DNA of 64,000 bases from a virus (lineage: Duplodnaviria > Caudoviricetes): the IMG/VR virus record IMGVR_UViG_3300023174_000048, positions 128,001 through 192,000 of that record. The stretch is one strand, 5' to 3'. Within the stretch, counting starts at the first letter, position 1. Every line of letters starts with the position of its first letter. Position numbers and translations under genes: made by a program. This document shows, one piece after another, positions 20,401-37,593 of the stretch. The notes under the pieces were generated by a model. That model searched no databases. It was not told the DNA's origin and was given only the letters and a program-made list of their open reading frames with translations.

Positions 20401-20892
20401 TAATGGGTTTGATGATTCTATTAGTTTTAATTCAATAATAATATTGTTTGACTGGTCTAATGATGGAAGATTAATACTGATAGATTTTGAAGAGCAGTCT
20501 ACAAGATACAAGGCGCTTATAGGATCTAAAGATAAATCTTTATCAATAACGATTGTGTTGTTTAGTCCTTTGTCAAAAGAACTTTGATTAGCAAATACAT
20601 AAAAATCATTACCAGAAGATGGAAAATCTACTGTATTGTTATTATTAGACGATGAAATAGTCTCAATTCTTTTAACAACAATATTACCAATATTATCAAA
20701 TACTATTTCTCCAACACCAGTTTCAAATAGGCGACTATTTAAGTTTCTGGCTATGTAAGGAATTAAATATCCTACATGATTGGTATTAAGAATATTATAT
20801 GTTTTTATAGCAGATACTGGCTTAATACCGTCATTTTCTATAACGAAATTAAATCCAATATTATCAAATACTCTTATTAGTTTGTTTGACAT
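17437..20892 (-). CDS. Fibre/baseplate protein with C-terminal FGE-sulfatase (C-type-lectin-fold) domain
   Basis: 1151-aa ORF directly downstream of the TMP. YGTYDQNGNAAEW, GFRIAS, YRIGKYEVTNTQYCAFLNAV, KPVVFVSY, YWLPNLNEWHKAAYY at about 17900-18720. Confidence 0.8.
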   Translation of the reverse strand: MSNKLIRVFDNIGFNFVIENDGIKPVSAIKTYNILNTNHVGYLIPYIARNLNSRLFETGVGEIVFDNIGNIVVKRIETISSSNNNNTVDFPSSGNDFYVFANQSSFDKGLNNTIVIDKDLSLDPISALYLVDCSSKSISINLPSLDQSNNIIIELKLIESSNPLFINDKDGSLVCTLDSFNNYARLASTGKDWVVLNNKTPERMGVQSLNNDSDTFSIMSADINNAEMYWDSGSQRVFIGANSASSADTIIPTSGTYPFVVNNNSNGSDFIVYGSGSLNKNLFFSYDGRVGINIPSGSRPSTVFHIVNTVCQEGLRLENRTSCYPANITLYHKPSTDITSGSVVSQINLSAKNSTGNQTNYAQIESRAVNTTVYGEKGSLDITVVSGVTGIKTIQTTVDSTYVGYSGNRLQINNNGNLLLTNGSSQITVSPQSSITFSSASLYATGTSYLTNISSQNIDASNITISNLGSSGLLMVSGGKIINSPLSIDSAGSLRIPVPANKLLSTTANGAITGIYTLDDYFLTERDIVWTKYSPRTATACLRQITFADSVPSDEFAPGDQIVISYNGSNLYRRVISLELNGNAIVGLLVDESIVQNTTSNVNIYSITKGGYLTMTKSVDDGIISNSSSNTLSIRPLVDTTFNAGQKDINFSVYGLGDDPALFIKANTGRILIPSGIYSGFATGRSDMFSTIINITGVGLSNQYSSANYAYDNSRNIFSGLLSSVGTNGLPSYYGTYDQNGNAAEWIEKQDAIESRDSIEFIAGGAYSTANDSIIGSNVLKSIESLIRASGYNYVGFRIASLQGITDQTYISSTNGLNMSFVGVNNPKNIEDLNPIYIKNPAGSPTVYSQQVINNLGVVNNIYRIGKYEVTNTQYCAFLNAVAKINDRELYDIRMSSNAQGGITRISNAGYEYSTKSNMGDKPVVFVSYLSAIKFINWLHNGASITLSESDIDYNLSVGAYTIYSIGSNSYNVVKSSYRKYWLPNLNEWHKAAYYRPVNSNDFTGTSTVSIKRSEPEIIATGIDITGSAAKLYANLSVSGWLYVDHIVVGDGTIRSAKSFTGLTDPVVVDTPTSQGTTTVSPSINLLTQYNNPYASVFGSVASCISAGCSFNAKPLRLDEDTISLCSDNTLSYNEIPWWCDTNNNGPGWFN

Positions 20893-20895
20893 ATA

Positions 20896-23800
20896 TTAGG
20901 TTCTCATTGGGCGATTGTTTGCGGCTGAGTTTAAATTGCCTTCAAATTGGGTTCTATCGTATTTAGCTACTGTATTTTGACTTGTAATAGCTCCAGCATA
21001 ATGACCAGCACTTTCTCCAGCACTTTTTCCAGCAGCAGAAGCGTGGTTTTGTACAGAGCCTACGTCTAATCTAACCGATTGTGTACCATTTATTTCTGCT
21101 GTTAATGATGTTGGTATTTGACTAGCAGTCTCTGACCAAGTATTTGCTGAACTAGCAATTGTTTGTGAGGCACTAGAGAATGTTTGGCCGAAATTGTTTA
21201 ATGTTTCAGTACTGCTTTGTATCATTTGACTATATGTTTCCATTCCTGATTCGAGTGCGGTGCTTAGTTGGTTCATAGCCTGTCCTACTGCAGCGCTAAT
21301 ACTAGACGATATATCATTAGATACACCACTACTACCACTACTGCCGCCACTACCTCCACTAACTAATCCAGCCTCAGCATAATATTTGGGCGCAACTATT
21401 CCACCATTGGCCAAATAGTTAACAATTCCACCTCTATTGAAATGGCCACTATTTATAGCATTAAGAAGAGGCATATGTTGCTGACTAGACTCTCTGTTAA
21501 CAACAAACTCTCCAGGAGTTAGCATGGCTGGTACAGTATCTGTTCCCTGAGATAATGATGGAACTAATGCTCCATTATTAGCATATACCAAGCCGCCAGA
21601 AGCATACATCATTCTACCACCAGCAGGCTTAGGAACATTCTGTATTTGTCTTTCTCTTTCTGCTTTTTTATATTCTTGTGACTGAGTGTAGTGGTCAGGA
21701 ATAAGTCCTTGCGCCCCTAACTCTTGTGTTCTCTGTTCTATTCTTTTTGATTCTGCTGCATTATCGGCCATTTGTCTGGTTGTGGATTCTGTTTCTACAA
21801 CTAATTGTGCTGCTGCTCTTCCAGGACTAAACATGTTCTCGCCAAAATTTTGAGCATACCCTTGCTGTCTTTGTCTATCATTTTCTTTAGCATAGTCTTC
21901 TGCTGTTTTTTCTCCGCTCATTATTGCTGCTGCTTCGGATGCGTAACTGCCAGCAGCATAACCTCCATAAGCAGCAACGGCGCCAATGCCTGTTGCGGCA
22001 GCAGGACTTGAGGTTCCTAGTCCAAAAACTTTTGCTCCATGACCAACAGAGTGTGCTGTGTGTCGTGCTTCTCCGATCATATCAATTCCTTCTCCAACCA
22101 ATGTTGCTGTGTGTCCTGTACCAAAATGGGCATCAAGATTAGATCCCATTGTTCTCATATTTAATGGATTTCTTCCTCTGGTAGCAACAGCGGACAATCC
22201 TGTAGAAGCAGCATTTCCAGCCAAAGAACTAGTTGTCATACCATGATGACCATGAGAATCATGACTGTCATGATCGTCAACATGACCACCATTACCATAA
22301 TATCTTACTAGTCCACCTTTATTATATCCATGGAATTTCATTAACTTCTTTAAAATTCTTTCTGCTATTTTATTGCCTTTTACTTTTTCGATATTTTCTA
22401 CTAATGTTGTTAGTAGTTCTGATGGATTCTTTTTTATAGCCGATGAGCTGTATCCATTCTTGCTCTTGCCACCACTAATAGAAGATAATCCACTAGGATC
22501 ATCAACAAATTTTTCTATTTCTTTCATTAAGGGCGATTTCTGTAAACTTCTTTTTCCAAAAGGATCTTTTTTACTACCTTTCGTACTTTTTTGAAATAGA
22601 TGACCAAGCTCGTGTTTCACAATACTCTCATCAGCATATTGAGATCCAAAAACTAGTTTTGATTCTGCTGTTGTCATACCAACTTTACTAGAATTTGTTA
22701 CTGGTCTATTTATTCCTTTTATTTGTCTACTAGCATTGATTTTGTCTAGATCAACCGATACGGATTGTGGTGTAGATTTTTCAACAAATTCTGATAAGAA
22801 CTTATTCCTTCGTGCTGGAGTAACATAATCAGCCAAATCACTTGCTAAATTCTCCTGAACTTGTCTGAATGACACCGGGTCTGTAACATTAACTTTTGAT
22901 TTTGTGGCTGTTGTTGGCTTAACTGGTTTAGTTGGAATAGTTGGTTTAGTTGGTTTGGGTTTTACTATAGATGGTCCGGCAACTGTTGTTTTAGCTTTTC
23001 CTAACACGCTTTGGGTCGCTGTGCTATTTGGAACACCTTGATTAACAAGATCTTGAATCTGTTGATATTGTGCTGCTGTTATTTTGGGCTTAACTTGTGG
23101 ACCGGGTGTTGGCATAGTCAAATCAATATTTGATAATTTTTCATCCAATGCTCTGCTTCTTGCTGCTTTAGCTTTGGCCGCTAGTCTACCATAATTACCA
23201 TCATACTCTAATGGATTAATATCGTCTATGCTTCTGATTTTGGTGGGAGCAGACTCTGGGAATGTTACTGGCTTTGCTGGTTTTAAATTCTTATAAGAAG
23301 AAGTAGTGCCTGATCTATTAAGATTTGGTCTTGAATAACTTGGGGCAATACCTCTAACTCCTATAACATCACCCATTTGAGTAGCAACATCTTGAACGCC
23401 CTCAACAAAATTATTAACTGCCCTTCCGGCTCCACGAGCACCAGGAATTCTACCACCCAATCTTCCTGCTCCTCTGGCAGTTGATGTAATAGCTCTATCT
23501 ACTGTTCCAGCAACTCTGCCAACACTAGCAGCACCAGGTATTTTACCAGCAGCCCTACCAACACTAGAAACACCAGGTATTCTACTAGCGACCCTTCCAG
23601 CAGCCCCTGCCATTCGACCGGCAACATTAAATACTGCTCCTTCAGCATTAACTAATGCTCCTGCGCCTTGAGTGCTTCCATACGCAGTAGTTTGAGCAAA
23701 TGCTGTACCAAAGCCAGCCCAACTATCCATACCACCAGCCAGCTCCACATTTCTAGCATCATTACGTTGTAATGCTGTTTGCTCACCAGTTTGTATCGGC

Positions 23801-26800
23801 CCCATACCAGCAACAGCTTGTCCGGCTTCAACAAAACTAGTTGCTCCAGCACCCATAGCCCTTAGTCCAACATCGGCGGCCGCAGAAGTTGCTGCAGAAT
23901 AAGCTCCCTGTTGATTATTTAGTCTGTCGCTGTTTGCCGTAAATGTTCTTGCTCTTATAGCAGCAACATCTTGAGCAGCCGCTATCTCTTGAGGAGATGG
24001 CATTGGTCTGCCATTAGCTCTAGCCTCATCATACATATTTTCGGCTGTTCTGTTTCTTAAATTATTTTCGTCTCCAATTTTAAAAGCTGTATCATCTCCA
24101 GACATAGCATATCCAATACCTCCAACAATAGGAGATGCAACTGTTGCAACTGCTCCGGCAGTTATATTTGCCGCCCCATAAAGGGCGTCTCCAATACCCT
24201 GAGTTACTCCTCCAACATATCCTACTGCTGCCGTAGCAGGATTGCTACTATTTATATATAATGATGCTTGTCTATCTTCTTCGGCTTTTTGCTGTTGTGC
24301 TCTAACCTTTTCTGCCGCACTAACTTGTTGGGCCCCTTCAAATTGTGCTATCGCTTCGCTATTTGCTTGATCCTGTAATAGTTGTTCTGTTGTTGGAACC
24401 TTATAGCTTGCAACAGATTCCTTATAAGGTTTAGGCATATATGATCTTTGTTCATCTCTATATTTGTCTCTTTGCTCTTCTTTAACTTTTCCTTCGGCTA
24501 AGAATTTATTAAATTTATTATCTATTTCTGCTGTTTGAGCATCTTCTTTAGCTTTATTTCTTTCATTGATTACTTGCTGTCTTCTTTGTTTCTTATAAGC
24601 TTCTCTATTTCCTTCATCATCTCTCCATGCTCCTGATTCTAATAGTTGGTTAAATTCAACATCAAATGCTTGTTCTTGAGCTGCTATTTGTGCTCTTTTT
24701 TCTATTCCTATTTTTGTGCTAGTAATAGCACTATCTGCTTCTCTCTTTTTCTTCGTGTCGCTTGAAGTTGTAGCCGTTTGAATTGAAGAAGATAATCCTG
24801 GACTAGCAGTTATTCTATAAACATTTTGTGTTTCTGCTTTTGCTCGTATTTTTGGATCATTACTATATTCTAATGGATCTGTAGCGCCAACAGATTGATA
24901 AGAATTTATTTGACTATTCGGCATAAACAACTGATTTGGATATTTTATCATTGTCTCAGTCGCTAGTACATTCGATGGTGATCCAAGAGGAAAGTTAAAC
25001 CAATCTCTGCGTGAGCTTTCTCTATCTCTAGTTGTTTTTTGAGACTCAAACCTTGGGGTATTAGGATCTCCTCCATATGTATAATTTGTTCCAGCAACAT
25101 AATCTCCAGGCAACGATACTCTAGGACTTGGAACCATTGGACCAATATTAACGCCTAATCTTCCATCCTGATTTTTAATTTCTGGTGTTCTCAAATTAAC
25201 AGAAGTATTAGTCTGGGTTGCTTGTTGAGTTTGCTGTGCCTCATAAGCTCTATTATCGGCTATGCGATTAACCATTCCTTCTAAAGGATTTCTTGTTTGG
25301 TATTTTGGATCATTTGGATCTGGCTTTTGTAAAACCTTATTGGTAGTATAAGATGCTAATCCTGTTTGAACACCAGAAGAGACCGCAGGATCAGTTATAT
25401 CAGGTCTTGCAGTAGTATACTGCTGTCTAATTCCTGATTCGATTGCGGCATTTTGTTGGGCAGCCTGTTGCTCATTGCTTGGTCTTGAGTAGCCTTCATT
25501 TATTCTAGAGGCCGTTGCTGGATCAAGACCGCTAGGATTTACTGCGTTGCTAGTTATTGGAGGCAACGCAGCACTAAATGATAGAGCACGTAAACTTCCT
25601 CTATTTCTACGATCAGAACCTAACTCTTTTAGGGCTGATCTTTCTTCTGGTGTTATCTCATTAGACTGAGCACCTTTACGATAAGCACTATTTACTAAAG
25701 AAGAAATATTACGATCTTTTTCTACAGTATATGGACCGACCTCTCTTTTTATTTGATTAGATTTCAATGTTGCATATTCTGTTTCTTCTTCTGGACTTCT
25801 TCCTTTGCTTCCTTTCATCCACAATGATCGTCTTCGTGAGTCTTCAGATTTGATTTTTTTCTTCTCGTCAATAGCTTCTTGAGTTGGTCTAATTTTTGTT
25901 GTTGTTCCTCTGCCCCACGGAATAACATCTGCTCTTACTAAAGGAACCGGTAATGATGGTTGTATTACTGGTTGTGAAAATTCTTGTGGAGACAGCGACG
26001 TTTGAGCTATTGGAGTATTTAATGCTGCTGTTTCAGCATCGCGTGCTTTTTCAAATCTTTCTGTAGCTCTTTTCTTTTCTTCGTTAAAAAAATTAGCACC
26101 AACAATAGCAGAATTAGGATCCTCCTTTATGCTACCATATCCTGCATCGTTAGCGCTTCTGAGCTGTGCATCGTTTTCTTTATTATTATAATTATCCCAT
26201 CTATTTTGAAATTCTGGTTCATATTTTTTGGCTTCTGATTGTCTTTCATCTTCTGTCATCCCCATCCATCTACCATCGCCTACCTGAGATTGTGCCCAGC
26301 TAGATGATGTTCTAGAAACTACCTCATCAGGTCTTCCTCCAGTTGCTTCTGACATCATCCATGATTCTTTTTGAGCATCTATTCTTTCTTCTTTTCTTTT
26401 TTGTACTTCGCCACCCTGTGCTAAATAAACCACTCCGCCCTTACTATAATTTCCACTATTAATAGCTTTCAATAATGGCAAGTGTTCTGAGGTTGATCTT
26501 GCATTAATCACAAACTCGCCCGGAGTTAACATAGCAGGAACAGTATCAGTTCCTTGTGGTTGGAAATTTACTAATTGACCTTCACTAGCATAAATTAATC
26601 CTCCGCGAGCCTTCGGAGGAGCAACTGGGGCGGCAACTCCGATATTTAATGGAACTTTAGCTCCGCCAGGAGCATTAATTCTACCTTCATTCATATCATT
26701 ATTAAGCATACTAGCTTCAACAGTTGTTCTAAGATCATCTATACTAACCTTAAGGTTGGCATTTGCTGATACTAGAGCCTGCTGAGATTCTAATAAAGCC

Positions 26801-29800: not shown

Positions 29801-32800
29801 GTAATTAATTTTTCTTTTTTCTCAGCTTCTGTTAAAATGGCTTGCTGGGCACCACCCGAACCAAGAACTTTACCTGTTTTTGATTCTTTTAATCCTGCTT
29901 CTAAAAATTGTCGTTTTGCTACTGCTGTTTTAGCTTGATCTCTAACATTCTTTAATGCTTTTTCTGCTGCTATTATAGTGTCTATTGATGCTCCAGTAAT
30001 CTTGAGTCTTTCAACATCCTTAGTCATTGCCTTTTCAATATCTTTATAAGATATGTCAGCTCCTGCCCCAACTTGTTCAAGAACTTTCTTAAAGCTTATC
30101 ATGCTATAACCAGCTTCTTCAAAACCTTTTGTTAATAGTTTAATATTATTAACTAGTTCTGATGAAGCTTCTATACTTTTACTATCAATAGTTTCTGGTC
30201 TGGTTTTTAATTTTTGAACTGCTGGTTCAGCAAAACCTTTTAATCCTTTCATTATTTCTTCAATACTAAAAACACTACCTCCAGTAGCAAATCTTTGAAT
30301 TACTCCTCCACCAACTACTCCTCCCTTATTATAACCCTGTAATTTATCCGCTTTATTTAATGTCTCTAACTTGCCATATCCTATTTTTTCTGCTGCTTTC
30401 TTATTAACAACAAATTCACCAGGAGTTAATAATGCAGGAACAGTGTCCTTTGATGATATTCCTGCTTGTCCTCCTTGAGCAAAGGTCTCGATATTGGTTG
30501 GCTTCAAGGGAGATGATCCAACATATTTTAATGCTAATCCTAGTGGTTTTTCAAAAAGTTTGGATTCAAAAGAATTTACTAATTCGGGATCTCCAGATTG
30601 TATTCTGGACATAAGCTGACCCAATAAAGCCCCTTCTCTTACATCTCCTTCACTTCCGGCATAAATAGATTTTCTTGATCCTCCAGGCAAGGTAAACTCT
30701 GTTCCGTCTTCGGACTTTAATGTTTGAGATCCTTCTTGAACACGTACTCCAACCGACATCATCCCAGCGTCTGGATTTTTATCAAACTTACCTTTTAATC
30801 CGGTTTGATTTTCAGTAGGAGCATATTTATCTTTAAGAGTATCGTAATTATCATGCATCCATTGTACCACTAGTCCTTTTTGTAATTCATAATCTAAATC
30901 ATAAGTTTTTGGATCTAAAGTTTCATCAAAACTTAATACCATTGGTTTTCCTGATCTATCTCCTTGAGCAACAGTGAAGTTGCTTCCTCCATTAACTCTC
31001 ATCTTAGCTTGTTGTTCTGCTTTATTCTTTTCTGTATATAAGTAGAATCCTTCTCCTTGACCATATCCTTTAGCAATATTAGAAAGGGCACCTTTTTCTT
31101 TAAAGCTCTTTAAAACACTATCATCAACTCCGGTATTGCTTCCGTGATATAGTTTAACTTGTCCTCCAGTAGCATATCCTCTATTTTTTCTCCACATTTT
31201 TTCATCATTAGTTTTGGTCTCAAACTCTTTTGGCTTGCGACCTTGTTTTTCCATAGCCTCTTGTATTCTTTTTTGTTTATTAGCCTGGGCAAGTTCATAT
31301 CTTTCTTGTTCTGGTGATGTTTTTTTAGATGGTATTAGTCCAAATCTTTTGTTTATCTCCCAGTCTGGAATAGCATAGTCTTTATATCTATTATCTAATC
31401 GTTCTTCTAATTTTGCTGTGAGTTCTTCTTGGCTCATGCCCAAAGTCTTTGCTCGTGCGGCAATATCGGGTGGGGAATATGATCCTCTTACCCAGCCACC
31501 CTCGGAAAGCATTTGTATGTCTTCTTTGACGGGTTCTGGAATTCCATATTGTTGTCTAAAATGTTTTTGGAATTCTTCAACAGCCTTGCCTCTACTATTA
31601 CTATCTATTGTTCTTTTAACTTCTGTTGGAATATCAGGATCGATACCAAATATTTTTGCTGCTTTAGATCCGATGCCCATTGGAAAGTCAATCGGACGAG
31701 TTCTTAAAGCATCGTCTAATATTGTAGCATCTGCTGATCCAAAAATTTGTTCTAGTAAAGCGCCTTCAATATTACCCTGACCTAATGTTTCTCTTTGTTT
31801 TTTAGTTAATTTCTTTGGAGATATTCCAAGAAGTTTGGCTGCTCCGCCTACAATTTCTTCTGTTTGACCACTAAGATAATCAATTACATTTTGATATTGA
31901 TTTGGTAATCCTCTCTGAACTATTGAAGCATCTATTGATCTTTCTTGTCCAGACGAATCAACTCCAAGATTCCAAGTTTCTGGCCCTAATAATCCAGTAT
32001 ATCCCAATGGATTTAATCCAACTAGTCCTAATTGTTTTGACGATAATACAGCGCTAGTTGTTTCTGCTAGTGACGTGGCCTTTTGAGTTCCTTGTGATTC
32101 ATTAAATTTGTCTATTAGATAGTCTCTTGTTGCAATATAGTAAGCGAGCTTGTCTGCTTTTGTTTCTGGTCTAAATGCAGAATTCCAGTATTTTAATTTT
32201 CCTCCTTCGGCGGTATCTCTTACTGTTTTTCCTGAGAATGGACCAAAACTTGCGTCATTTGGTAATCTGTCTGTTCCAAATCTTTTTAATATCTCTGTTC
32301 CTTGTGCTGGTAATATCCCAGAAGACTTCTTGACCTGAGTAGCCTTTTCTACATTTTTTAGTATTGCTTCTTGTAGTCCAGAAGGCATTGCTGTTGGCAC
32401 CCCACTAAATTCACCGGCCATGCCTTCAGACAATTGGGCCGATATGACATCTTTAGATAAGTCGGATGGCTGTGCTGATACTGATGCTCTGCGTGATGGA
32501 TCTAATCCATAAGCATCTGGATATTTAGCAGATAATAAGGAGATTATATTGTGTGCTCTGTAGCCCAAAAGACTGGAACTCAATTCGTCTCTTTTCTCTC
32601 TCATAGCTTCAATTTGGGCTACTACATCTGGAGCATTGTCTCTTACCCTTTGAGTAATATTTTTGCCGTATGGGCCTCCTGGAGCTTCTGCTAACATTTT
32701 TTGAATTTCAGCATTTGTTTGAGCTTTTTGATTTGCTCCATATTTTGTTATTTCTTCAATAAGCATAGGAACCATCACGCTGCGATTTCTTAGCTGTGCT

Positions 32801-35800
32801 CTATTGCCCATGAGAACAGAAGCAACTTCTGGGCTAACAAAACTAGTTAAAGCTTCATCATCTCCATTAATCACTGCTTGCCTAACTTTAGTAGCACTAA
32901 TATCGTCTATCCTTGGAATATCTGTTACGTCAACTCCTGCTTTTTCATATTTTTGAAGAGCACCGGCTTTTTTCCCTGATGTGATTGCTAATGCTCCTTT
33001 TAGTTTAGCAAATTTTCTACGACCATTAGCTCCTTGAACCTCCATCATTTTTGGCAAAACATCTCCTCTGCCAGTTGATTCGGCACTTATCATGCCTCCA
33101 GGAAAATTAACTCCTGCTAATAATGCTCTAAAATCTGCTGGAAATATGCCATATCGTGCAGCATGTGCGAGCTTCTCTGCGTCGGTATCTCCTTCTCCTC
33201 TGTCCATCGATAAATTAGGAGCAACACTCACTATAATATCTTCTGCTGAAGCATTTGGATTTCTAGAAATCATATTACTTAATAAAGTATCAAATGCTCC
33301 ACGATGGCCTCTGGTCGGTGGAGCAAATCCACCAGTGTAGTATCCACCAGCCTGAACAATTTCTGGCAATTCTTCTTCAGTCTTACGTCTTAAACCAAAA
33401 CCTCCTGGTTTGCGACCAAGAACGGTTGCCCTTTTACCTAATTCATCCCTTAATATACTCTCTTCTACTGTAAAATCTCTAGGAGCAATATTTGTAATTC
33501 CTGGTTTACGACCATATAGACCTTCCCCCGTTAAATCTCTCTGAACTCTATTAGCTCCTATTTGATCTTGTTCTTCTGTTGTATTGGAACTTAATATATA
33601 TGCTCTATCAACATCTTTTAAATATGCATCTAATTTTTCTTGACTAGCAGTAGATGTTAAGACTATAACCTCATTAACTTTAGCAATATCTTCAGGGCTA
33701 AGAATTGAAGAGCGAATAGTTTTTCTTAAAGTTGCATCATCTGGAGATCCTTTTCCCGTAGCCAAACTACTTTTGCCTGATCCTGCTGCTCCAGCGATTG
33801 CTGTTAATTTTGATAAAGACTCTTCTTTTCTTGCTTGTGCTGCTAATTTTGCTAATTCTCTGCTATATAAACTAGTATTTGTAATTCCAAGTTTTTCCAT
33901 GGCTGGTCCAACAATATCGGCATTTGCTGGATCTCGTAAAACATCTGTATCTATAATTCCTATATTTCTTTGTACTTTTCCACCAGCAGCATAAGTTTGT
34001 CTCTGAATACCAGCACTACCCAATAGATCAGTTAGTGTAGAATCTAAAGCTCCTTGAAGATTACTATCAAGTCTAGGATAGTTCTGAACTAGTGTTGTTA
34101 AAAATTCTTCTTTCCCACTATCTTCTATTCTATCAATATAAGATTGAGAAATACTATTATCTAATAATACCTGATTAACTTCTGGATTTAATGGTTTAAA
34201 ATCTTTAGCCTTTTTAATACCAAGAGATTTTGCCCAAAGAGAGGATGCGGCGGTGGCTGCTTCGGGAGTTTTAGCAGGCTTGTCTCCCCTGCTAATAGAT
34301 CGATTTTGTTGTATAATTTGATCTAATGTTCCAACTTTGTATGAACGTCCATATACAACATCCGAACTATTATAGCTGGACTCTAAAGCATCAAATGCAT
34401 CTGCTAAATCATTATTATCTCCACTAAATAGTGAAACAACTCTTGATTTATATTTATCAAAACTCTCTGATGATCGTGTTCTTAATCCTTGAAATAATTG
34501 ATGGGTCATTTCATGATAAAAAGTATCATTTTTTCTACCAGAAAGTCTTCCGGTGCTCATGGTGATCGCGCCACGGCCAGTAGCTTTAGCTGTGGTTTGC
34601 ATCTGATCCATAGCAGTTAATTCTGCTTGGTTTTTTAATTTTTTAGTATTAGATATCTTCATTTGAAGATCATTAATCTCATCCCAAGTTTGTTTAGCTA
34701 ATGCTTCATCATATGAAAAAGATCCGTCATCAAAAGTTTTTACTGGTGTTTTTATTATTTTCTTCAATTCTTTTTGTTTTTCTGCTACTAATTTTTCATA
34801 TCCATAAAGATCCTGGTCATTGGCCTCTGTATATCCAGAACCAGATAGGTCATAGCCAGATGTGCTTTTAGTACCCATACCCGTTCTATCAAATTGACCA
34901 AGACCTTTTAATCCCAGATCAGTAAAATCAATATGACTTGGTAGAGCTAATGATAAATCTTCTTTTGGTAGTCCTATGAATTTAGCAAAGTCACTCATTC
35001 TTCTATAAATAGCGCTATTAGCTAATTTACTCTTGAAAGAATCTGCAAACTGCTTTCTATCGAATGGTATTGAGTCAAAAGCTTCGGTTGCTTTTGCTTG
35101 ATCCACTTTGAATCTAAAGTCTTCTGGATATTCCAAGAAGGATCCTCCACTAAAAGCTTTATCAACTTGTTCTTTATTTAGCTTGGCGTCTATTTCTTTG
35201 AAATAGGCATTACTAATTCTTTTGGGAAATGGAAAAGTTCCACTTCCAAATGATCGGGTTTCTTTTGCTTTTCCTCCGGCCATGAATTTTTGAATTTTTC
35301 CACCAAGATTTTTTTCTGTAAATCTACCTGTTTTAAATTCATCAGATATAGTTAAAATATTTGAATCGCCTTCTATAAGTAATCTATTATATCTATCTTT
35401 ATCTCCTTGTACAATTTGTTTCTTTAACTGCTTCAATTTACCTTCATCTGCATTATTCAGATTTTTTTTCAGTTCTTCTGTAGCCTTGTTTCCAGCCTCC
35501 ACAGCCGTTAGTCCTGAATCTGTTACTATTGTTTCTGGTGGTATAACCCAATCATTACTCTTTTTTCCTGTTTTTTTAACCTTACTTAATATATTAGCAT
35601 TTTTTTCATATTTTGATATTTGATCTAATTTTGCTTGACTGACTTTACTTTCTCCAGTTTTTTTAGAGTTAGCTCTCTCGCCCATAGTCTCATATGCATC
35701 AAAACCTCCTACTCTGAATTCTACTTCAAAAGGCTTTGGTCTAGGAATAGCAGTTGCAATAAAGCTATCTCCATCTTTTACTTTTTTAATACTTTCAAGT

Positions 35801-37593
35801 GATCTTATCTCAACAGCACCACCGCTAGCAAACCCTTTTCTTCGGTTTGATCCTCCAGCTCTTATACTTCCTCCACCACCATACTTATTCATATTATGAA
35901 GATTATCCGATCCTATAGTCTCAACAGCTTTTTTTCGTATCACAAATTCTCCTGGCTCTAACATTGCAGGAACAGTATCTCCACTACCAGTGCCTGGAAC
36001 AACACCTCCTCTTGCGAATTTTCTAATTACTCCACCACTAGCTTTACCATCTGGTCCTCTTTTAACTCCAGTACTAAAACCACTAGCAAATTGAGTTAAA
36101 GCTTTGGCGCCCTTAAATGCTGTTATAACAGCAAGAGCGGGTAATATTCCTTTAACAGCATCTGTCACTTTAATTAGTCCACTAGCTAAACTTAAAGCTC
36201 CTCTTATTAATGACTGAAAACCTTTTGATTGTCCTATTTCTCTGAATAGAGCAAAAAACTCTTGTCTTACTTTGCTAATTTGATTGGCCAAAGAAAGTTG
36301 TGCTGTTGCAGCATCTTTCGCTAATGATCCTTGACCAGCTTGTGCAGTCTTTAATGCTTCTTGAGCAACTGTGAACTGCTGAATAAGCGGAATAACTTTA
36401 CCAATTTGTCGGAATCCACCAAGTTCTTCAACTATCTTAGAGAACTGAGCAGTTCTTGGATCAATTCCACTCAATCCCTTACTTAATAATTCAACAGCTT
36501 TATAGGCTCCTACGAATTTACCTTCGGTATCAGTTAGATTAACTCCAAACTCTTTGAGAGAATCAATTGTGCTTCCTCTCTGAATACGAGTAAAAATAGT
36601 TCTTAAGCCAGTAGCAATAGTTTCAGCACTTTCACGAGTTGTAGCACGAACACTTGTGAACACTGCTATAAATTCATTTAAAGCATCCTTACCTTCACTA
36701 ACTCCTTTACTTGCAGTTGCAAATACGCTACCCGTTCTTTGAACAGCAGTAATAATGTCAGAAGATTCAACAGCGAATCTTGCAGCAACAGTATTTACAG
36801 CACCTAGTGCTCCTTCTAAATCATCAGCACTAATACCAAACTGTCTCATTAATGCGATACTTCCTTCTACTGTCTCATTCATATTATCAAATGATGGAGC
36901 TAAACTACTTAAAGCTAAAGCTCTTAATGCTTTTTCTGTTTCTCTCGCACTCAAACCAGCCTGTGCTAATGTAGAAGCAACAGAGGTTAAATCTTTAGAA
37001 CTAACACCAAATGTTGTTGACAGATTTGTAATTTGTTCTTGTAGTTTTGCAAGGCCAGATGACGATTCTCCGGTTACCTGTTGTAATTTAACTAATTCTT
37101 TATCATAATCAATAAATGCTTGAACACCCTGACTAATACTATTTGTTAATCCGTATATAACACTAGTAACAGTACTAAATGCTACGAATCTTCTAATGGC
37201 AAGACCAGCCTGTTTACCGAACTCTTGCATCTCTGCTGATGCTGATCCAAGATCTTTTGCTGACGAGGCTGATGCTTTGTTAAGTTTATTAACAGCATTA
37301 GCTGCTGCATTTATTTGTTGTGGAACGTTATTTATTTTGACGCTATTTATGCTGTTACCAAAAGCTTTGATAGCTGCTGAAGCAGCAGTAGCAGACGTTG
37401 TCGTTGAACCAAATGCGGCATTTAAGCCTTTGAGAGACGATGACAAAGCCGCAACATTTTTAGTAACAGCAGGATCAAGCTTAAAAGTAATATTTGCATT
37501 AATGTTACCAAGATCTTTTTTAATTTGTGCAGCAATTTGCTTTACATTTGTTGGTCCTTGTAAATTCAGTTGTGCAGTTAAGTTGAATGCCAT
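20896..37593 (-). CDS. Giant tape measure protein (TP901-type core) fused to multiple enzymatic cargo domains (polyvalent TMP)
   Basis: 5565-aa ORF after the tail tube and chaperone genes. The N-terminal ~500 aa carry the TP901-family TMP core (FIDYDKELVKLQQVTG...TLAQAG...QFGI...NTVAARFAVESSDI...TIATGLRTIFTRI); later long Ala/Glu/Lys coiled-coil tracts. Cargo motifs are listed under findings. Confidence 0.92.
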   Translation of the reverse strand: MAFNLTAQLNLQGPTNVKQIAAQIKKDLGNINANITFKLDPAVTKNVAALSSSLKGLNAAFGSTTTSATAASAAIKAFGNSINSVKINNVPQQINAAANAVNKLNKASASSAKDLGSASAEMQEFGKQAGLAIRRFVAFSTVTSVIYGLTNSISQGVQAFIDYDKELVKLQQVTGESSSGLAKLQEQITNLSTTFGVSSKDLTSVASTLAQAGLSARETEKALRALALSSLAPSFDNMNETVEGSIALMRQFGISADDLEGALGAVNTVAARFAVESSDIITAVQRTGSVFATASKGVSEGKDALNEFIAVFTSVRATTRESAETIATGLRTIFTRIQRGSTIDSLKEFGVNLTDTEGKFVGAYKAVELLSKGLSGIDPRTAQFSKIVEELGGFRQIGKVIPLIQQFTVAQEALKTAQAGQGSLAKDAATAQLSLANQISKVRQEFFALFREIGQSKGFQSLIRGALSLASGLIKVTDAVKGILPALAVITAFKGAKALTQFASGFSTGVKRGPDGKASGGVIRKFARGGVVPGTGSGDTVPAMLEPGEFVIRKKAVETIGSDNLHNMNKYGGGGSIRAGGSNRRKGFASGGAVEIRSLESIKKVKDGDSFIATAIPRPKPFEVEFRVGGFDAYETMGERANSKKTGESKVSQAKLDQISKYEKNANILSKVKKTGKKSNDWVIPPETIVTDSGLTAVEAGNKATEELKKNLNNADEGKLKQLKKQIVQGDKDRYNRLLIEGDSNILTISDEFKTGRFTEKNLGGKIQKFMAGGKAKETRSFGSGTFPFPKRISNAYFKEIDAKLNKEQVDKAFSGGSFLEYPEDFRFKVDQAKATEAFDSIPFDRKQFADSFKSKLANSAIYRRMSDFAKFIGLPKEDLSLALPSHIDFTDLGLKGLGQFDRTGMGTKSTSGYDLSGSGYTEANDQDLYGYEKLVAEKQKELKKIIKTPVKTFDDGSFSYDEALAKQTWDEINDLQMKISNTKKLKNQAELTAMDQMQTTAKATGRGAITMSTGRLSGRKNDTFYHEMTHQLFQGLRTRSSESFDKYKSRVVSLFSGDNNDLADAFDALESSYNSSDVVYGRSYKVGTLDQIIQQNRSISRGDKPAKTPEAATAASSLWAKSLGIKKAKDFKPLNPEVNQVLLDNSISQSYIDRIEDSGKEEFLTTLVQNYPRLDSNLQGALDSTLTDLLGSAGIQRQTYAAGGKVQRNIGIIDTDVLRDPANADIVGPAMEKLGITNTSLYSRELAKLAAQARKEESLSKLTAIAGAAGSGKSSLATGKGSPDDATLRKTIRSSILSPEDIAKVNEVIVLTSTASQEKLDAYLKDVDRAYILSSNTTEEQDQIGANRVQRDLTGEGLYGRKPGITNIAPRDFTVEESILRDELGKRATVLGRKPGGFGLRRKTEEELPEIVQAGGYYTGGFAPPTRGHRGAFDTLLSNMISRNPNASAEDIIVSVAPNLSMDRGEGDTDAEKLAHAARYGIFPADFRALLAGVNFPGGMISAESTGRGDVLPKMMEVQGANGRRKFAKLKGALAITSGKKAGALQKYEKAGVDVTDIPRIDDISATKVRQAVINGDDEALTSFVSPEVASVLMGNRAQLRNRSVMVPMLIEEITKYGANQKAQTNAEIQKMLAEAPGGPYGKNITQRVRDNAPDVVAQIEAMREKRDELSSSLLGYRAHNIISLLSAKYPDAYGLDPSRRASVSAQPSDLSKDVISAQLSEGMAGEFSGVPTAMPSGLQEAILKNVEKATQVKKSSGILPAQGTEILKRFGTDRLPNDASFGPFSGKTVRDTAEGGKLKYWNSAFRPETKADKLAYYIATRDYLIDKFNESQGTQKATSLAETTSAVLSSKQLGLVGLNPLGYTGLLGPETWNLGVDSSGQERSIDASIVQRGLPNQYQNVIDYLSGQTEEIVGGAAKLLGISPKKLTKKQRETLGQGNIEGALLEQIFGSADATILDDALRTRPIDFPMGIGSKAAKIFGIDPDIPTEVKRTIDSNSRGKAVEEFQKHFRQQYGIPEPVKEDIQMLSEGGWVRGSYSPPDIAARAKTLGMSQEELTAKLEERLDNRYKDYAIPDWEINKRFGLIPSKKTSPEQERYELAQANKQKRIQEAMEKQGRKPKEFETKTNDEKMWRKNRGYATGGQVKLYHGSNTGVDDSVLKSFKEKGALSNIAKGYGQGEGFYLYTEKNKAEQQAKMRVNGGSNFTVAQGDRSGKPMVLSFDETLDPKTYDLDYELQKGLVVQWMHDNYDTLKDKYAPTENQTGLKGKFDKNPDAGMMSVGVRVQEGSQTLKSEDGTEFTLPGGSRKSIYAGSEGDVREGALLGQLMSRIQSGDPELVNSFESKLFEKPLGLALKYVGSSPLKPTNIETFAQGGQAGISSKDTVPALLTPGEFVVNKKAAEKIGYGKLETLNKADKLQGYNKGGVVGGGVIQRFATGGSVFSIEEIMKGLKGFAEPAVQKLKTRPETIDSKSIEASSELVNNIKLLTKGFEEAGYSMISFKKVLEQVGAGADISYKDIEKAMTKDVERLKITGASIDTIIAAEKALKNVRDQAKTAVAKRQFLEAGLKESKTGKVLGSGGAQQAILTEAEKKEKLITAQRKSQIEKDLIKKDPSLLGDKDKLERRTNRRLEKEQRQIKEQAFSSATEKVTGIKRSELSGMGIGGADIQSYVSQSMTDRKTLAQMDKQLIAMRLEEYKNAGTVRGVSVKSASEALSLAKEEVSKRREMINEMAKEQGEKGVGAGGLTDIRNSPIKKAVQERYFSGTMSQGIGTALGDVGMVAGLVGGQGKNIANLMYDTSTDEGKIAAAGKGAAIEQAGSTLATGLTTASQLMAINPLLGGLTALGTVVYAATDYFTDFTGAQETAALEMEKNLRFEEVAASEKDLAKAFKDFEKDLGNIDLQKALDKALVRSSESSLKAVSAETKVAQNEKGKTRTWTEFLSGAEKPKMDTQDFNELDSKIAERNADSGDKAFALISQKINTGASVESIQADKELIGARRALVLADEDALKTVRARIMEEGGYEKVSKEKQDAILDEVANQKILTNVQVQSAIKTKQMSDALEAADKAGRKLAASFEKLSNIISESVNRIKFESDVRKSSAEKSRSALRGQSEDNGPKLRELNVLENPNAYSEKDFNQALQSATAGVDEKTRNQLIGGAQLQQQLPNAITKSIAEKLSTKGSLGVEEAKTEAIKTTNEQIDKTNLSDEQKTSLKKQAETRINNLAEEAKKKNDTPQAELDAFREGLGDADNILGAFGVKTLEAVKALSSFKQGALADFSEGLRDASKAAKDAQNYFKKARDIRAQGDMNLREVMTGVGETYDEKQARVMGDVAGLAGGETSVGGIKNRIVDLQAQRTAVEEKRQGMSDPDELKKSAIQLRSLDDQLRDTREALDTLASSTELVEKAFDDLKNVRDLQKNRESFVNTLLTNTPEEADKLNKTFIRLQRNLSGGLNGASNQRDARKAFNQTLRETGSVREATKAGNTVLANQRKETLALSQDPGVRAAQELNIRNQYAQGKGKPGVSADQAVADYFKQQQLQLTKSMAIESGMMNNPLVQQSIAAMENPNADPAMKEASSKYLQSVGLQADATKAQGELALLESQQALVSANANLKVSIDDLRTTVEASMLNNDMNEGRINAPGGAKVPLNIGVAAPVAPPKARGGLIYASEGQLVNFQPQGTDTVPAMLTPGEFVINARSTSEHLPLLKAINSGNYSKGGVVYLAQGGEVQKRKEERIDAQKESWMMSEATGGRPDEVVSRTSSSWAQSQVGDGRWMGMTEDERQSEAKKYEPEFQNRWDNYNNKENDAQLRSANDAGYGSIKEDPNSAIVGANFFNEEKKRATERFEKARDAETAALNTPIAQTSLSPQEFSQPVIQPSLPVPLVRADVIPWGRGTTTKIRPTQEAIDEKKKIKSEDSRRRSLWMKGSKGRSPEEETEYATLKSNQIKREVGPYTVEKDRNISSLVNSAYRKGAQSNEITPEERSALKELGSDRRNRGSLRALSFSAALPPITSNAVNPSGLDPATASRINEGYSRPSNEQQAAQQNAAIESGIRQQYTTARPDITDPAVSSGVQTGLASYTTNKVLQKPDPNDPKYQTRNPLEGMVNRIADNRAYEAQQTQQATQTNTSVNLRTPEIKNQDGRLGVNIGPMVPSPRVSLPGDYVAGTNYTYGGDPNTPRFESQKTTRDRESSRRDWFNFPLGSPSNVLATETMIKYPNQLFMPNSQINSYQSVGATDPLEYSNDPKIRAKAETQNVYRITASPGLSSSIQTATTSSDTKKKREADSAITSTKIGIEKRAQIAAQEQAFDVEFNQLLESGAWRDDEGNREAYKKQRRQQVINERNKAKEDAQTAEIDNKFNKFLAEGKVKEEQRDKYRDEQRSYMPKPYKESVASYKVPTTEQLLQDQANSEAIAQFEGAQQVSAAEKVRAQQQKAEEDRQASLYINSSNPATAAVGYVGGVTQGIGDALYGAANITAGAVATVASPIVGGIGYAMSGDDTAFKIGDENNLRNRTAENMYDEARANGRPMPSPQEIAAAQDVAAIRARTFTANSDRLNNQQGAYSAATSAAADVGLRAMGAGATSFVEAGQAVAGMGPIQTGEQTALQRNDARNVELAGGMDSWAGFGTAFAQTTAYGSTQGAGALVNAEGAVFNVAGRMAGAAGRVASRIPGVSSVGRAAGKIPGAASVGRVAGTVDRAITSTARGAGRLGGRIPGARGAGRAVNNFVEGVQDVATQMGDVIGVRGIAPSYSRPNLNRSGTTSSYKNLKPAKPVTFPESAPTKIRSIDDINPLEYDGNYGRLAAKAKAARSRALDEKLSNIDLTMPTPGPQVKPKITAAQYQQIQDLVNQGVPNSTATQSVLGKAKTTVAGPSIVKPKPTKPTIPTKPVKPTTATKSKVNVTDPVSFRQVQENLASDLADYVTPARRNKFLSEFVEKSTPQSVSVDLDKINASRQIKGINRPVTNSSKVGMTTAESKLVFGSQYADESIVKHELGHLFQKSTKGSKKDPFGKRSLQKSPLMKEIEKFVDDPSGLSSISGGKSKNGYSSSAIKKNPSELLTTLVENIEKVKGNKIAERILKKLMKFHGYNKGGLVRYYGNGGHVDDHDSHDSHGHHGMTTSSLAGNAASTGLSAVATRGRNPLNMRTMGSNLDAHFGTGHTATLVGEGIDMIGEARHTAHSVGHGAKVFGLGTSSPAAATGIGAVAAYGGYAAGSYASEAAAIMSGEKTAEDYAKENDRQRQQGYAQNFGENMFSPGRAAAQLVVETESTTRQMADNAAESKRIEQRTQELGAQGLIPDHYTQSQEYKKAERERQIQNVPKPAGGRMMYASGGLVYANNGALVPSLSQGTDTVPAMLTPGEFVVNRESSQQHMPLLNAINSGHFNRGGIVNYLANGGIVAPKYYAEAGLVSGGSGGSSGSSGVSNDISSSISAAVGQAMNQLSTALESGMETYSQMIQSSTETLNNFGQTFSSASQTIASSANTWSETASQIPTSLTAEINGTQSVRLDVGSVQNHASAAGKSAGESAGHYAGAITSQNTVAKYDRTQFEGNLNSAANNRPMRT

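What the first reader, a model, noticed from the sequence alone, without database searches (positions are those of the whole stretch)
21395..36045. Four DTVPAML(T/E)PGEFV cassettes bracket two cargo blocks in the TMP
Seen in sequence: a ~70-aa unit, [FY]A-x-(G/E/N)G...DTVPA[ML]L[TE]PGEFV[VI]...L..[MLI]N...[YF]xxGG.V...[FL]AxGG, occurs four times, at about 35812-36045, 30270-30484, 26400-26612 and 21395-21625. Copies 1 and 2 flank the six-enzyme block (about 1775 aa). Copies 3 and 4 flank a second block with low-complexity sequence, peptidase 2 and a His-rich segment. Established, from memory: a single related motif is common near the C-terminus of many siphophage TMPs. Inference: duplication of this cassette created insertion sites in which cargo accumulates or is exchanged by recombination, and the cassette may mark processing or export boundaries.
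Basis: partly seen in the sequence, partly recalled or inferred. Interest (0 to 1): 0.85.

Follow-up and report, generated by a model that had tools for sequence, protein, structure and literature searches.

The report
Repeated junction cassettes in giant tape-measure protein
A 5565-residue phage tail tape measure protein is built from swappable modules separated by a conserved ~70-residue cassette also present once in phage lambda's tape measure; two cassette pairs frame two highly variable cargo slots, a layout shared by about a thousand uncultured-phage protein clusters and seen in miniature in cultured mycobacteriophages.

Summary
DTVPA[ML]L[TE]PGEFV occurs four times, at aa 539, 2383, 3683 and 5352 of the ORF at 20896-37593 (-). 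These four cassettes are the protein's only internal repeats.

The cassette is homologous to lambda gpH residues 729-798 (E 1e-7). That stretch lies beside the glycine-rich region where gpH is cut to gpH*.

A profile search found 16,618 proteins carrying the cassette, about 983 of them with several copies. The best 150 share one plan: TMP core, C1, slot 1, C2, a conserved ~1170-aa helical module, C3, slot 2 with 0-6 extra cassettes, last cassette, and a ~143-aa tail.
- Cassettes before the helical module are lambda-like (type A). Those after it are a second type (B).
- Slot lengths vary up to tenfold.
- Similarity breakpoints pile up at cassettes and at short double-GG linkers between single cargo modules.
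- Module order differs among relatives.

Mycobacteriophages Douge and LeBron show the same thing independently: two cassettes flank unrelated cargo.

So the cargo-slot and exchange reading is supported, but cassettes also bracket a non-cargo module. Whether they are processing sites is untested. AlphaFold gives the cassette no fold of its own. Enzyme assignments for the cargo rest on motifs and weak matches.

Other first-stage notes of this scan describe the same protein, and similar ones on other DNA.

The parts
20896..37593 (-). Gene for the 5565-aa (599 kDa) tape measure protein P0001
   Evidence: Single ORF. PF10145 at aa 185-391, E 2e-24. TIGR01760 at aa 146-480, E 2.6e-32. The identical protein is on record from three contigs, the longest 225,860 bp.
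36046..37593 (-). N-terminal TMP core, aa 1-516
   Evidence: In relatives the first cassette starts at median aa 519.
35812..36045 (-). Cassette C1 (type A, lambda-like), aa 517-594
   Evidence: 113 bits; type call.
30493..35811 (-). Variable slot 1, aa 595-2367: modules M1-M5 separated by GG linkers
   Evidence: HSP end points cluster at aa 750-780, 1185-1215, 1695-1710, 2025-2040 and 2130-2145. Modules are reordered or absent in relatives.
35272..35304 (-). Double-GG linker KNLGGKIQKFMAGG, aa 764-774 (M1/M2 border)
33994..35271 (-). M2, aa 775-1200: zincin-like module with HEMTH at aa 1027-1031
   Evidence: Y-H-E-x-T-H-Q is invariant in 13 homologues. HExxH is seen 59 times against 0.57 expected in the family. 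The Atlas leads to LPD1/5/23 are weak. No Pfam or PDB match.
33979..33993 (-). GG linker YAAGG, aa 1201-1205 (M2/M3 border)
32494..33981 (-). M3a, aa 1205-1700: P-loop followed by a HIGH-type nucleotidyltransferase (NadR-like pairing)
   Evidence: Invariant G..GK and G-H. Profile against PDB sequences: MJ0951 7.4e-5, NMNAT 0.0045, NadR 0.035. PF16581 at 0.002, below its cut-off.
31507..32496 (-). M3b, aa 1700-2029: conserved module whose C-terminal part shows an E..PID..E-x-K pattern
   Evidence: Invariant E244, D270, E292 and K294. Atlas feature hits to LPD38 at 0.92. Pfam finds none. The nuclease reading is an inference.
31495..31509 (-). GG linker LSEGG, aa 2029-2033
31162..31176 (-). GG linker YATGG, aa 2140-2144
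30484..31164 (-). M5, aa 2144-2370: ADP-ribosyltransferase-like module (invariant H..Y..E)
   Evidence: Invariant H7, Y41/Y43 and E93. Atlas hits are ART-PolyVal, AcrIF11 and DUF3990. Foldseek hits are nearly all ART folds but weak, E 0.06-0.9, on a model of pLDDT 53. A cassette follows M5 in all 8 homologues.
30271..30492 (-). Cassette C2 (type A), aa 2368-2441
   Evidence: 99 bits.
26614..30270 (-). M6, aa 2442-3660: conserved helical module with a hydrophobic Gly-rich stretch at aa 2831-2852
   Evidence: M6-like in 137/150 relatives. Gaps to the flanking cassettes have medians of 20 and 10 aa. Hydrophobic segment.
26404..26613 (-). Cassette C3 (type B), aa 3661-3730
   Evidence: 104 bits.
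21607..26403 (-). Variable slot 2, aa 3731-5329: low-complexity sequence, HELGH at aa 4994, half cassette, His-rich run
   Evidence: Few homologues: P0088 for aa 4250-4817 and P0029 for aa 4567-5113.
22600..22614 (-). Second zincin motif HELGH, aa 4994-4998
22279..22335 (-). Half cassette (double-GG part only), aa 5087-5105, followed by the His-rich run
   Evidence: It is the fifth stretch reported for P0001.
21394..21606 (-). Cassette C4 (type B), aa 5330-5400: the canonical C-terminal copy
   Evidence: 111 bits. Relatives have a tail of median 143 aa after the last cassette.
20899..21393 (-). C-terminal tail, aa 5401-5565; by analogy with gpH 818-849, the part that sits in the tail tip
   Evidence: Length is conserved in the family, IQR 125-165 aa. 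The analogy rests on PMC10721106 and PMC12617516 and is an inference.

Best explanation
The cassette is a conserved junction element of tail tape measure proteins (TMPs). It has the form PHI-A-x-GG, spacer, D-T-V-P-A-x-L-x-P-G-E-F-V, a short helix, then one or two PHI-x-x-GG-x-V. Lambda gpH has it once, at residues 729-798.

Shown: in this family of giant TMPs from uncultured large phages the cassette recurs at fixed places and in two position-specific types. Type A flanks variable slot 1. Type B closes the conserved helical module and punctuates variable slot 2. The cassettes, together with short double-GG linkers that equal the cassette's C-terminal part, are the constant frame. Between them, cargo modules are gained, lost, reordered and replaced. 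The cargo here includes a zincin, a P-loop plus HIGH nucleotidyltransferase pair, an ART-like domain and polyvalent-protein-like domains.

Inferred: exchange happens by recombination between diverged TMP genes at these conserved junctions. It is tolerated because the cassette supplies what assembly needs, whatever lies between two copies.

Inferred, less firmly: the cassette is a signal read in trans or in the TMP oligomer. It would be a docking or registration element whose flanking GG motifs are hinges or cleavage points. In lambda, the cut that makes gpH* falls 0-30 residues before the cassette, so the fragment kept in the tail tip is cassette plus tail.
For: Homology and distribution:
- Four copies, the only internal repeats.
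- The type A profile finds lambda gpH at E 1.1e-7 and Douge gp16 at E 1.4e-11 with two copies.
- 16,618 proteins at E<=1e-3 and 983 at E<=1e-30, a level that needs at least two cassettes; up to 10 copies in one protein.

Family plan:
- Positions and lengths of the fixed parts.
- Type A in 146/178 cassettes and type B in 0 upstream of M6; type B in 238/282 and type A in 1 downstream.
- A 2289-aa relative lies in the same gene neighbourhood.

Exchange:
- 51.7% of 39,046 internal HSP ends lie in cassettes, against 10.7% expected. Outside cassettes, 18.5% lie within 12 aa of PHI-x-x-GG, against 5.5% expected.
- Module order is permuted in P0076, P0061, P0144 and P0033. M5 lies in slot 2 of P0016. 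Every junction carries the double-GG linker.
- Douge and LeBron TMPs are collinear at 52-53% identity outside the cassette pair and show no similarity inside it. Douge holds NlpC/P60 there: PF00877, 26.7 bits against a cut-off of 23.
- In TM4 a cassette directly precedes the experimentally characterised hydrolase motif mt3 (PMC1796659).

Selection and structure:
- Copies are kept alike by selection although their synonymous sites have diverged.
- No autonomous fold: pLDDT 61.7 and pTM 0.30 with 146 sequences.

Lambda:
- Fragment masses place the gpH cut at about residues 705-737, just before FATGG at 733-737 (PMC12617516).
Against: - No cleavage, docking partner or oligomeric structure of the cassette has been observed anywhere. 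The region is unresolved in the lambda and Douge cryo-EM maps (PMC10721106, PMC12617516, PMC13033339).
- No protease is linked to the cassette. Only 46 of 150 family members carry an HExxH module. No JAB, NlpC or other peptidase domain was detected in the neighbouring tail genes.
- T5 pb2 is cut after an Arg and has no detectable cassette.
- HSP end points are not independent events, so the enrichment figures overstate the number of recombination events.
- Breakpoints at conserved junctions could partly reflect where variation is tolerated rather than where recombination occurs.
- The longest identical DNA runs between copies are about 14 nt, which is short for classical homologous recombination.
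- The 150 relatives examined were chosen by total cassette score, so they are biased toward many copies.
Confidence: 0.6

Rival explanations
1. The cassettes and GG linkers are purely proteolytic processing sites. The giant TMP is a polyprotein cut at every PHI-x-x-GG, by a phage, host or embedded protease, into free effectors and tape segments, before or after ejection.
For: - The linker is a short conserved island inside K/E/P-rich flexible sequence at every module border.
- Lambda gpH is cut in the Gly-rich stretch next to its cassette (PMC12617516).
- TMP processing, including loss of an internal segment, has been reported (PMC1796659 discussion).
- Zincin modules are strongly enriched in the family: 59 HExxH against 0.57 expected.
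- Polyvalent proteins are proposed to be processed by embedded zincins (PMC5512222).
Against: - A protease site needs 4-8 residues. Here the best conserved part is the 13-residue DTVPAxLxPGEFV core plus a helix, not the GG.
- 104 of 150 members have no HExxH.
- No protease gene was found nearby.
- The two position-specific cassette types are not needed for a common protease.
- Removing the embedded motif from the TM4 TMP shortened the tail as a ruler predicts, so that cargo stays in the measuring chain during assembly (PMC1796659).
Confidence: 0.2
2. The cassettes are structural clamps or docking elements that are never cut. Short beta segments would fold only in the TMP trimer or hexamer, or against the tube, chaperone or tip proteins. 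They would restore chain register on both sides of any inserted module.
For: - Long conservation with an alternating hydrophobic pattern.
- No fold as a monomer in AlphaFold despite a 146-sequence alignment.
- Cassettes sit on both sides of every variable stretch and of the helical module.
- In lambda the cassette lies where hexameric gpH* gives way to trimeric gpHC (PMC12617516).
Against:
- There is no within-protein covariation of the C1-C2 pair: identity 0.439 against 0.431, with 636 of 5000 permutations reaching the observed value.
- The model does not by itself explain the short GG linkers between single cargo modules.
Confidence: 0.15
3. The repeats are functionless leftovers of serial fusion of TMP C-terminal ends, or an assembly chimera created by repeats.
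For: Each unit resembles the C-terminal cassette of an ordinary TMP.
Against: - Protein sequence is conserved while synonymous sites have diverged.
- Cassette types are tied to position across 150 proteins.
- The same protein is on record from three independent sources.
- The DNA copies are too different to mislead an assembler.
Confidence: 0.03

Closest known systems
Lambda gpH C-terminal region (residues ~700-853; gpH* / gpHC processing)
   Same: The cassette has the same architecture: FATGG, spacer, PAGIVHRGEFV, IG..L..L, YATGGYV, with a profile E of 1.1e-7. It is followed by a short tail that sits in the tail tip. A Gly-rich region lies beside it, where the TMP is cut (PMC12617516).
   Different: Lambda has one copy and no embedded enzymes. 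P0001 has four copies plus a half copy, and three of them are internal, far from the tip-binding tail. The cut site and the protease are unknown even in lambda.
Mycobacteriophage TMPs with embedded cell-wall hydrolase motifs (TM4 mt3, cluster L phages Douge and LeBron; Pedulla 2003, Piuri and Hatfull 2006)
   Same: An enzymatic cargo lies inside the ruler protein. In Douge and LeBron it lies between two cassettes, and in TM4 directly after one. The cargo differs between related phages while the flanks stay collinear.
   Different: These TMPs have one small slot of about 350 aa holding a peptidoglycan hydrolase. P0001 has two slots of about 1600-1800 aa with presumably cytoplasm-directed modules. 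The papers I read do not describe flanking cassettes.
Polyvalent proteins of phages and conjugative elements (Iyer et al. 2017, PMC5512222)
   Same: Many effector-type domains lie in one polypeptide, the mosaicism is extreme, and zincin peptidases are frequent. ART-PolyVal and LPD-like leads were found for M5, M2 and M3b.
   Different: That paper mentions neither tape measure proteins nor a conserved linker. Its examples are thought to be packaged in the head or transferred by conjugation. Pfam models of those domains do not reach significance here.
T5 pb2 (TMP cut between the tape and a C-terminal muralytic metallopeptidase)
   Same: A TMP is cleaved at the border between the ruler and an enzymatic cargo, and the C-terminal fragment stays in the tip (PMC10038345).
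   Different: The cut follows R1127, and no cassette is detectable in pb2 with either profile.

Membership tests
TP901-type phage tail tape measure protein (PF10145 / TIGR01760) | N-terminal PhageMin_Tail / tape_meas_TP901 domain | tested here: met
   PF10145 at E 2.1e-24, 86.9 bits against a cut-off of 33.2. TIGR01760 at E 2.6e-32. PHROG TMP families.
TP901-type phage tail tape measure protein (PF10145 / TIGR01760) | Gene lies between tail-chaperone-like genes and distal tail genes | tested here: inconclusive
   Small ORFs of 100 and 308 aa lie upstream, and fn3 and minor-tail-protein genes lie downstream. The same order is found around a 2289-aa relative. The chaperone identity and a frameshift were not shown.
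TP901-type phage tail tape measure protein (PF10145 / TIGR01760) | Sets tail length | not testable with these tools
   Needs electron microscopy of virions. The phage is uncultured.
Lambda gpH-type C-terminal TMP cassette | Sequence homology to gpH 729-798 | tested here: met
   Profile of 119 type A cassettes: gpH at E 1.1e-7, 34.9 bits. The 4-copy profile gave E 0.011.
Lambda gpH-type C-terminal TMP cassette | Single copy 60-220 aa from the C-terminus | tested here: not met
   Copy 4 fits, with a 165-aa tail. Copies 1-3 are internal.
Lambda gpH-type C-terminal TMP cassette | Adjacent proteolytic cut (gpH to gpH*) | not testable with these tools
   Positional compatibility in lambda only (PMC12617516).
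Polyvalent proteins (Iyer et al. 2017) | Two or more effector-type domains in one phage polypeptide | tested here: inconclusive
   At the level of motifs and weak matches: HExxH twice, P-loop plus HIGH NTase, ART-like. None reaches a curated Pfam cut-off.
Polyvalent proteins (Iyer et al. 2017) | Significant match to ART-PolyVal or LPD Pfam domains | tested here: not met
   No such Pfam hit at E<=0.05 in P0001 or in module homologues. Only language-model leads at 0.87-0.92.
TMP-embedded peptidoglycan hydrolase motifs | Lysozyme, M23, NlpC/P60 or LAS domain inside the TMP | tested here: not met
   None detected in P0001. Present in Douge as NlpC/P60.

The most novel reading that the evidence does not exclude
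The cassette and GG-linker system is a general cis-acting 'grammar' for loading arbitrary proteins into the tail lumen and releasing them in the host. Any module placed between two cassettes would be assembled, ejected ahead of the DNA and freed by cleavage at PHI-x-x-GG. The tape measure protein would then be a programmable multi-effector polyprotein, and the same element would explain the unexplained gpH to gpH* cut in lambda.
Probability: 0.25. Interest if true: 0.85.

Novelty: new variant of a known kind. Interest (0 to 1): 0.66.

Why it matters
Tape measure proteins are known to carry small embedded enzymes. Nothing I found in the literature says where such cargo can sit or how it is exchanged.

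This work gives a simple rule: cargo sits between copies of a conserved junction cassette. The rule holds in about a thousand uncultured giant TMP clusters and in cultured mycobacteriophages.

It also ties the cassette to the part of lambda gpH whose cleavage site, protease and role are still unknown after 40 years. That question becomes testable by mutating residues 729-786 of gpH.

If the rule holds, it tells phage engineers where a protein can be inserted in a TMP for delivery into bacteria. It also suggests that large uncultured siphophage-like viruses inject a whole set of early effectors from the tail.

Tried and rejected
- Pfam and NCBIfam do not recognise the cassette. They find no significant domain in either slot, even when module homologues are scanned.
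- Profiles of M2, M3b and M5 against PDB sequences gave nothing usable.
- AlphaFold of the cassette with 146 sequences gave pLDDT 61.7. AlphaFold of M5 plus C2 with 8 sequences gave pLDDT 53. Neither gave the cassette a fold. The Foldseek result for M5 is only suggestive.
- I considered the embedded zincin as the universal processing protease and rejected it, because only 46 of 150 members have HExxH.
- I looked for a JAB or NlpC-type protease in neighbouring tail genes, as in lambda gpK, and found none.
- The idea that the two cassettes of a pair recognise each other finds no support from covariation.
- Amino-acid composition could not separate 'tape' from 'cargo' segments.
- There is no near-identical DNA in cultured phages and no whole genome is held.
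- P0002 was too long for a contig look-up.
- Two Atlas calls failed on length before being corrected.
- The first self-BLAST runs returned only the diagonal, so a tiled version replaced them.
- Literature searches for a described repeated TMP motif or for giant multi-cargo TMPs found none.
Full report
**1. What is there**

The window carries one uninterrupted ORF on the minus strand, 20896-37593, encoding 5565 aa or 599 kDa.
- Its first ~500 residues are a TP901-type tape measure core: PF10145 at E 2e-24, TIGR01760 at E 2.6e-32, and several PHROG TMP families.
- All ORFs of the window run the same way. Genes with fn3, FGE-sulfatase and minor-tail-protein matches lie downstream.
- The identical protein is on record from three sources, on a contig of 225,860 bp.
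- No cultured phage has near-identical DNA.

**2.

- DTVPA[ML]L[TE]PGEFV occurs at aa 539, 2383, 3683 and 5352.
- Each scores 99-113 bits against their joint profile.
- A tiled self-comparison shows that they are the only internal repeats of the protein.
- At the DNA level the copies are about 65% identical and differ at many synonymous positions. They are old copies held alike at the protein level, not a recent duplication or an assembly artefact.
- Copies 1 and 2 resemble each other, and so do copies 3 and 4.

**3. What the cassette is**

- A profile of 119 type A cassettes finds lambda gpH residues 729-798 at E 1.1e-7. It finds the TMP of mycobacteriophage Douge at E 1.4e-11, with two copies.
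- Read directly, gpH has the same parts in the same order: FATGG, a spacer, PAGIVHRGEFV, IG..L..L, then YATGGYV.
- tblastn places the motif in annotated TMPs of many cultured phages, mostly once per genome. It also occurs in proteins of T4-like cyanophages and pelagiphages.
- Pfam and NCBIfam have no model that hits it.
- The region is not resolved in the lambda or Douge cryo-EM structures. Only the last ~30-40 residues of the TMP are seen (PMC10721106, PMC12617516, PMC13033339).
- AlphaFold with a 146-sequence alignment gives no fold: pLDDT 61.7, pTM 0.30, one short helix.
- I therefore read the cassette as a conserved element that works only in a complex or as an extended signal.

**4. The family**

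A profile search of 1.84 billion cluster representatives found 16,618 proteins at E<=1e-3 and 983 at E<=1e-30.
- By the table's own score scale, E 1e-30 needs about 118 bits. That is more than any single foreign cassette gives.
- The best 150 proteins are 1618-7872 aa long. After split matches are merged, they carry 3-10 cassettes each (median 5).

They share one plan:
- The first cassette starts at median aa 519 (IQR 509-534).
- An M6-like helical module with a hydrophobic Gly-rich stretch is present in 137 of 150. Cassettes bracket it directly, with median gaps of 20 and 10 aa, and the span between them is constrained to 928-1417 aa.
- The tail after the last cassette is 125-165 aa (IQR).
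- In contrast, slot 1 (C1 to C2) ranges from 161 to more than 1740 aa. Slot 2 (C3 to the last cassette) ranges from 488 to 3260 aa and holds 0-6 further cassettes.
- P0001 sits at the large end for slot 1 (1774 aa) and at the median for slot 2 (1600 aa).
- A 2289-aa member lies in the same gene neighbourhood, and its upstream 349-aa protein is 38% identical to the one in the window.

Cassettes fall into two types tied to position. Upstream of M6 they are lambda-like: 146 of 178 are type A and none is type B. Downstream they are type B: 238 of 282, with one type A. P0001's order A, A, B, B is thus the family's basic plan.

**5. Exchange**

- BLAST of P0001 against relatives shows blocks that end at the cassettes and at four further points in slot 1: aa ~770, 1200, 2030 and 2140.
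- At each of these points lies a short motif, PHI-x-x-G-G-x-[VI]-Q-x-[FL]-[AM]-x-G-G. This is the C-terminal part of the cassette without its core.
- In relatives the same modules occur in another order (M2 after M3 in P0076, P0144, P0033 and P0061), are missing (P0029 lacks aa 617-1199), or sit in the other slot (M5 in P0016). Every new junction carries the double-GG linker.
- Over all 150 proteins, 51.7% of 39,046 internal HSP ends fall in cassettes, against 10.7% expected. Outside cassettes, 18.5% fall within 12 aa of PHI-x-x-GG, against 5.5% expected. These ends are not independent events, so the ratios show a pattern and do not count events.

**6. Independent test in cultured phages**

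- Douge gp16 (1699 aa) has cassettes at 954-1036 and 1410-1468. Between them lie a Pro/Gly-rich linker and an NlpC/P60 domain, PF00877 above its cut-off.
- LeBron gp16 (1654 aa) has cassettes at 951-1011 and 1394-1447. The two TMPs align at 52-53% identity up to the first cassette and from the second cassette on, with no similarity in between.
- LeBron's segment carries HPSGRALD...HYDHVH. By eye this is the same kind of motif as TM4 mt3, although Pfam gives no hit.
- In TM4, a cassette (aa 699-766) directly precedes mt3, the hydrolase motif studied by Piuri and Hatfull. Deleting mt3 gave viable phage with tails about 20 nm shorter (PMC1796659).
- In Douge, 29 of the 53 residues identical between the two copies use different codons. 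There too the copies are old and under selection.

**7. The cargo**

The 'six enzymes' are only partly verifiable.
- Supported at motif or weak-match level: a zincin (HEMTH, invariant in 13 homologues); a P-loop followed by a HIGH nucleotidyltransferase with PDB profile hits to MJ0951, NMNAT and NadR; an ART-like module with invariant H, Y and E, Atlas leads to ART-PolyVal and AcrIF11, and a Foldseek list made almost wholly of ART folds at weak E-values; and a second zincin motif in slot 2.
- M3b shows an E..PID..ExK pattern and an LPD38 lead.
- M1 and M4 remain unassigned.
- None of these reaches a curated Pfam cut-off.
- The flavour is that of the polyvalent proteins of Iyer et al. That paper mentions neither tape measure proteins nor a linker motif.

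**8. How it works**

Shown: cassettes and GG linkers are the constant frame of a modular protein, and variable content lies between them and is exchanged there.

Inferred: recombination between diverged TMP genes at these junctions creates the mosaics. Identical DNA runs between copies are only about 14 nt, so this would need relaxed, phage-type recombination or many rare events.

The function of the cassette itself is open.
- For a processing role: lambda gpH is cut in the Gly-rich stretch, and the reported fragment masses of about 78 and 14 kDa place the cut at about residues 705-737, just before FATGG at 733-737 (PMC12617516). The retained fragment gpHC is then cassette plus tail. TMP processing is common (PMC1796659, PMC10038345).
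- Against a pure cleavage tag: the best conserved part is a 13-residue core plus a helix, far more than a protease needs. Only 31% of members carry a zincin. No protease gene lies nearby. T5 pb2 is cut after an Arg and has no cassette.
- A docking or registration role fits the length of conservation, the lack of a monomer fold and the position on both sides of every variable stretch. There is no structure, and no covariation between the partners of a pair.
- I therefore commit to a combined reading: a junction element read in a complex, with GG motifs as hinges or cut points. The parts differ in certainty, as stated in the best explanation.

**9. Consequence for the tail**

If all 5565 residues count as ruler at about 0.15 nm per residue, as the TM4 deletion suggests for embedded motifs (PMC1796659), the tail would be about 0.8 micrometres long. 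Relatives with similar neighbouring genes have TMPs from 2289 to 7872 aa. Either tail length varies more than threefold in this lineage, or cargo is removed or compacted. Only microscopy or proteomics can tell.

**10. Novelty**

Embedded enzymes in TMPs, the conserved C-terminal region of gpH and polyvalent proteins are all known. I did not find the following described: reiteration of the gpH-type cassette as position-specific punctuation that frames exchangeable cargo slots, its spread over about a thousand protein clusters, and the matching case in cluster L mycobacteriophages. Other first-stage notes of this scan flagged the same protein, the GG motif, and ART-like cassettes in TMPs of other genomes.

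Noticed in passing
window 32494-33981 (-), aa 1205-1700 of P0001: A P-loop (GAAGSGKS) lies about 150 aa before a HIGH-type nucleotidyltransferase, with no GG linker between them. Weak profile hits go to NMNAT and NadR. This could be an injected NAD+-salvage module against NAD-depleting defences.
   Followed up: partly
window 17437-20892 (-) and 6799-10470 (-): Two large tail-region proteins (1151 and 1223 aa) each carry an FGE-sulfatase (C-type-lectin-like) domain, E 2.5e-11 and 6.8e-12. They are probably receptor-binding parts.
   Followed up: no
window 55858-60723 (-), 47327-50500 (-), 45209-46207 (-): Upstream of the TMP region lie a 1621-aa protein with a BppL_N (lower baseplate protein) motif, a 1057-aa protein with a right-handed beta-helix, and a 332-aa protein with a proprotein-convertase P-domain. 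This is an unusual place for baseplate- or fibre-like genes.
   Followed up: no
window about 22243-22287 (-), aa ~5103-5117: A His/Asp-rich run (HVDDHDSHDSHGHHG) directly follows the half cassette after the second zincin motif. It may be a metal-binding site.
   Followed up: no
L003:1076-6175 (Douge gp16) and L004:1600-6564 (LeBron gp16): Two related cluster L mycobacteriophage TMPs carry unrelated cargo between the same pair of cassettes. Douge has NlpC/P60. LeBron has a segment with HPSGRALD...HYDHVH, like TM4 mt3.
   Followed up: yes
phage records (e.g. GU071095.1 7674-7808, KM359505.1 7762-7884, MN698243.1 46981-47133): The cassette core also occurs in unannotated or 'transmembrane' proteins of T4-like cyanophages and in a pelagiphage. 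The element is therefore not confined to siphophage TMPs.
   Followed up: no
PDB chain 8vjh_Q (tape measure, 1431 aa), residues 1338-1370: A third solved-phage TMP gives a weak cassette match (E 0.027): FHDGG..SDEVPTILQKGEQV.
   Followed up: no
P0001 aa 2136-2445 and 7 homologues (alignment A9): The ART-like module is followed by a cassette in all eight proteins, whichever slot it occupies. Module plus cassette may move as one unit.
   Followed up: partly
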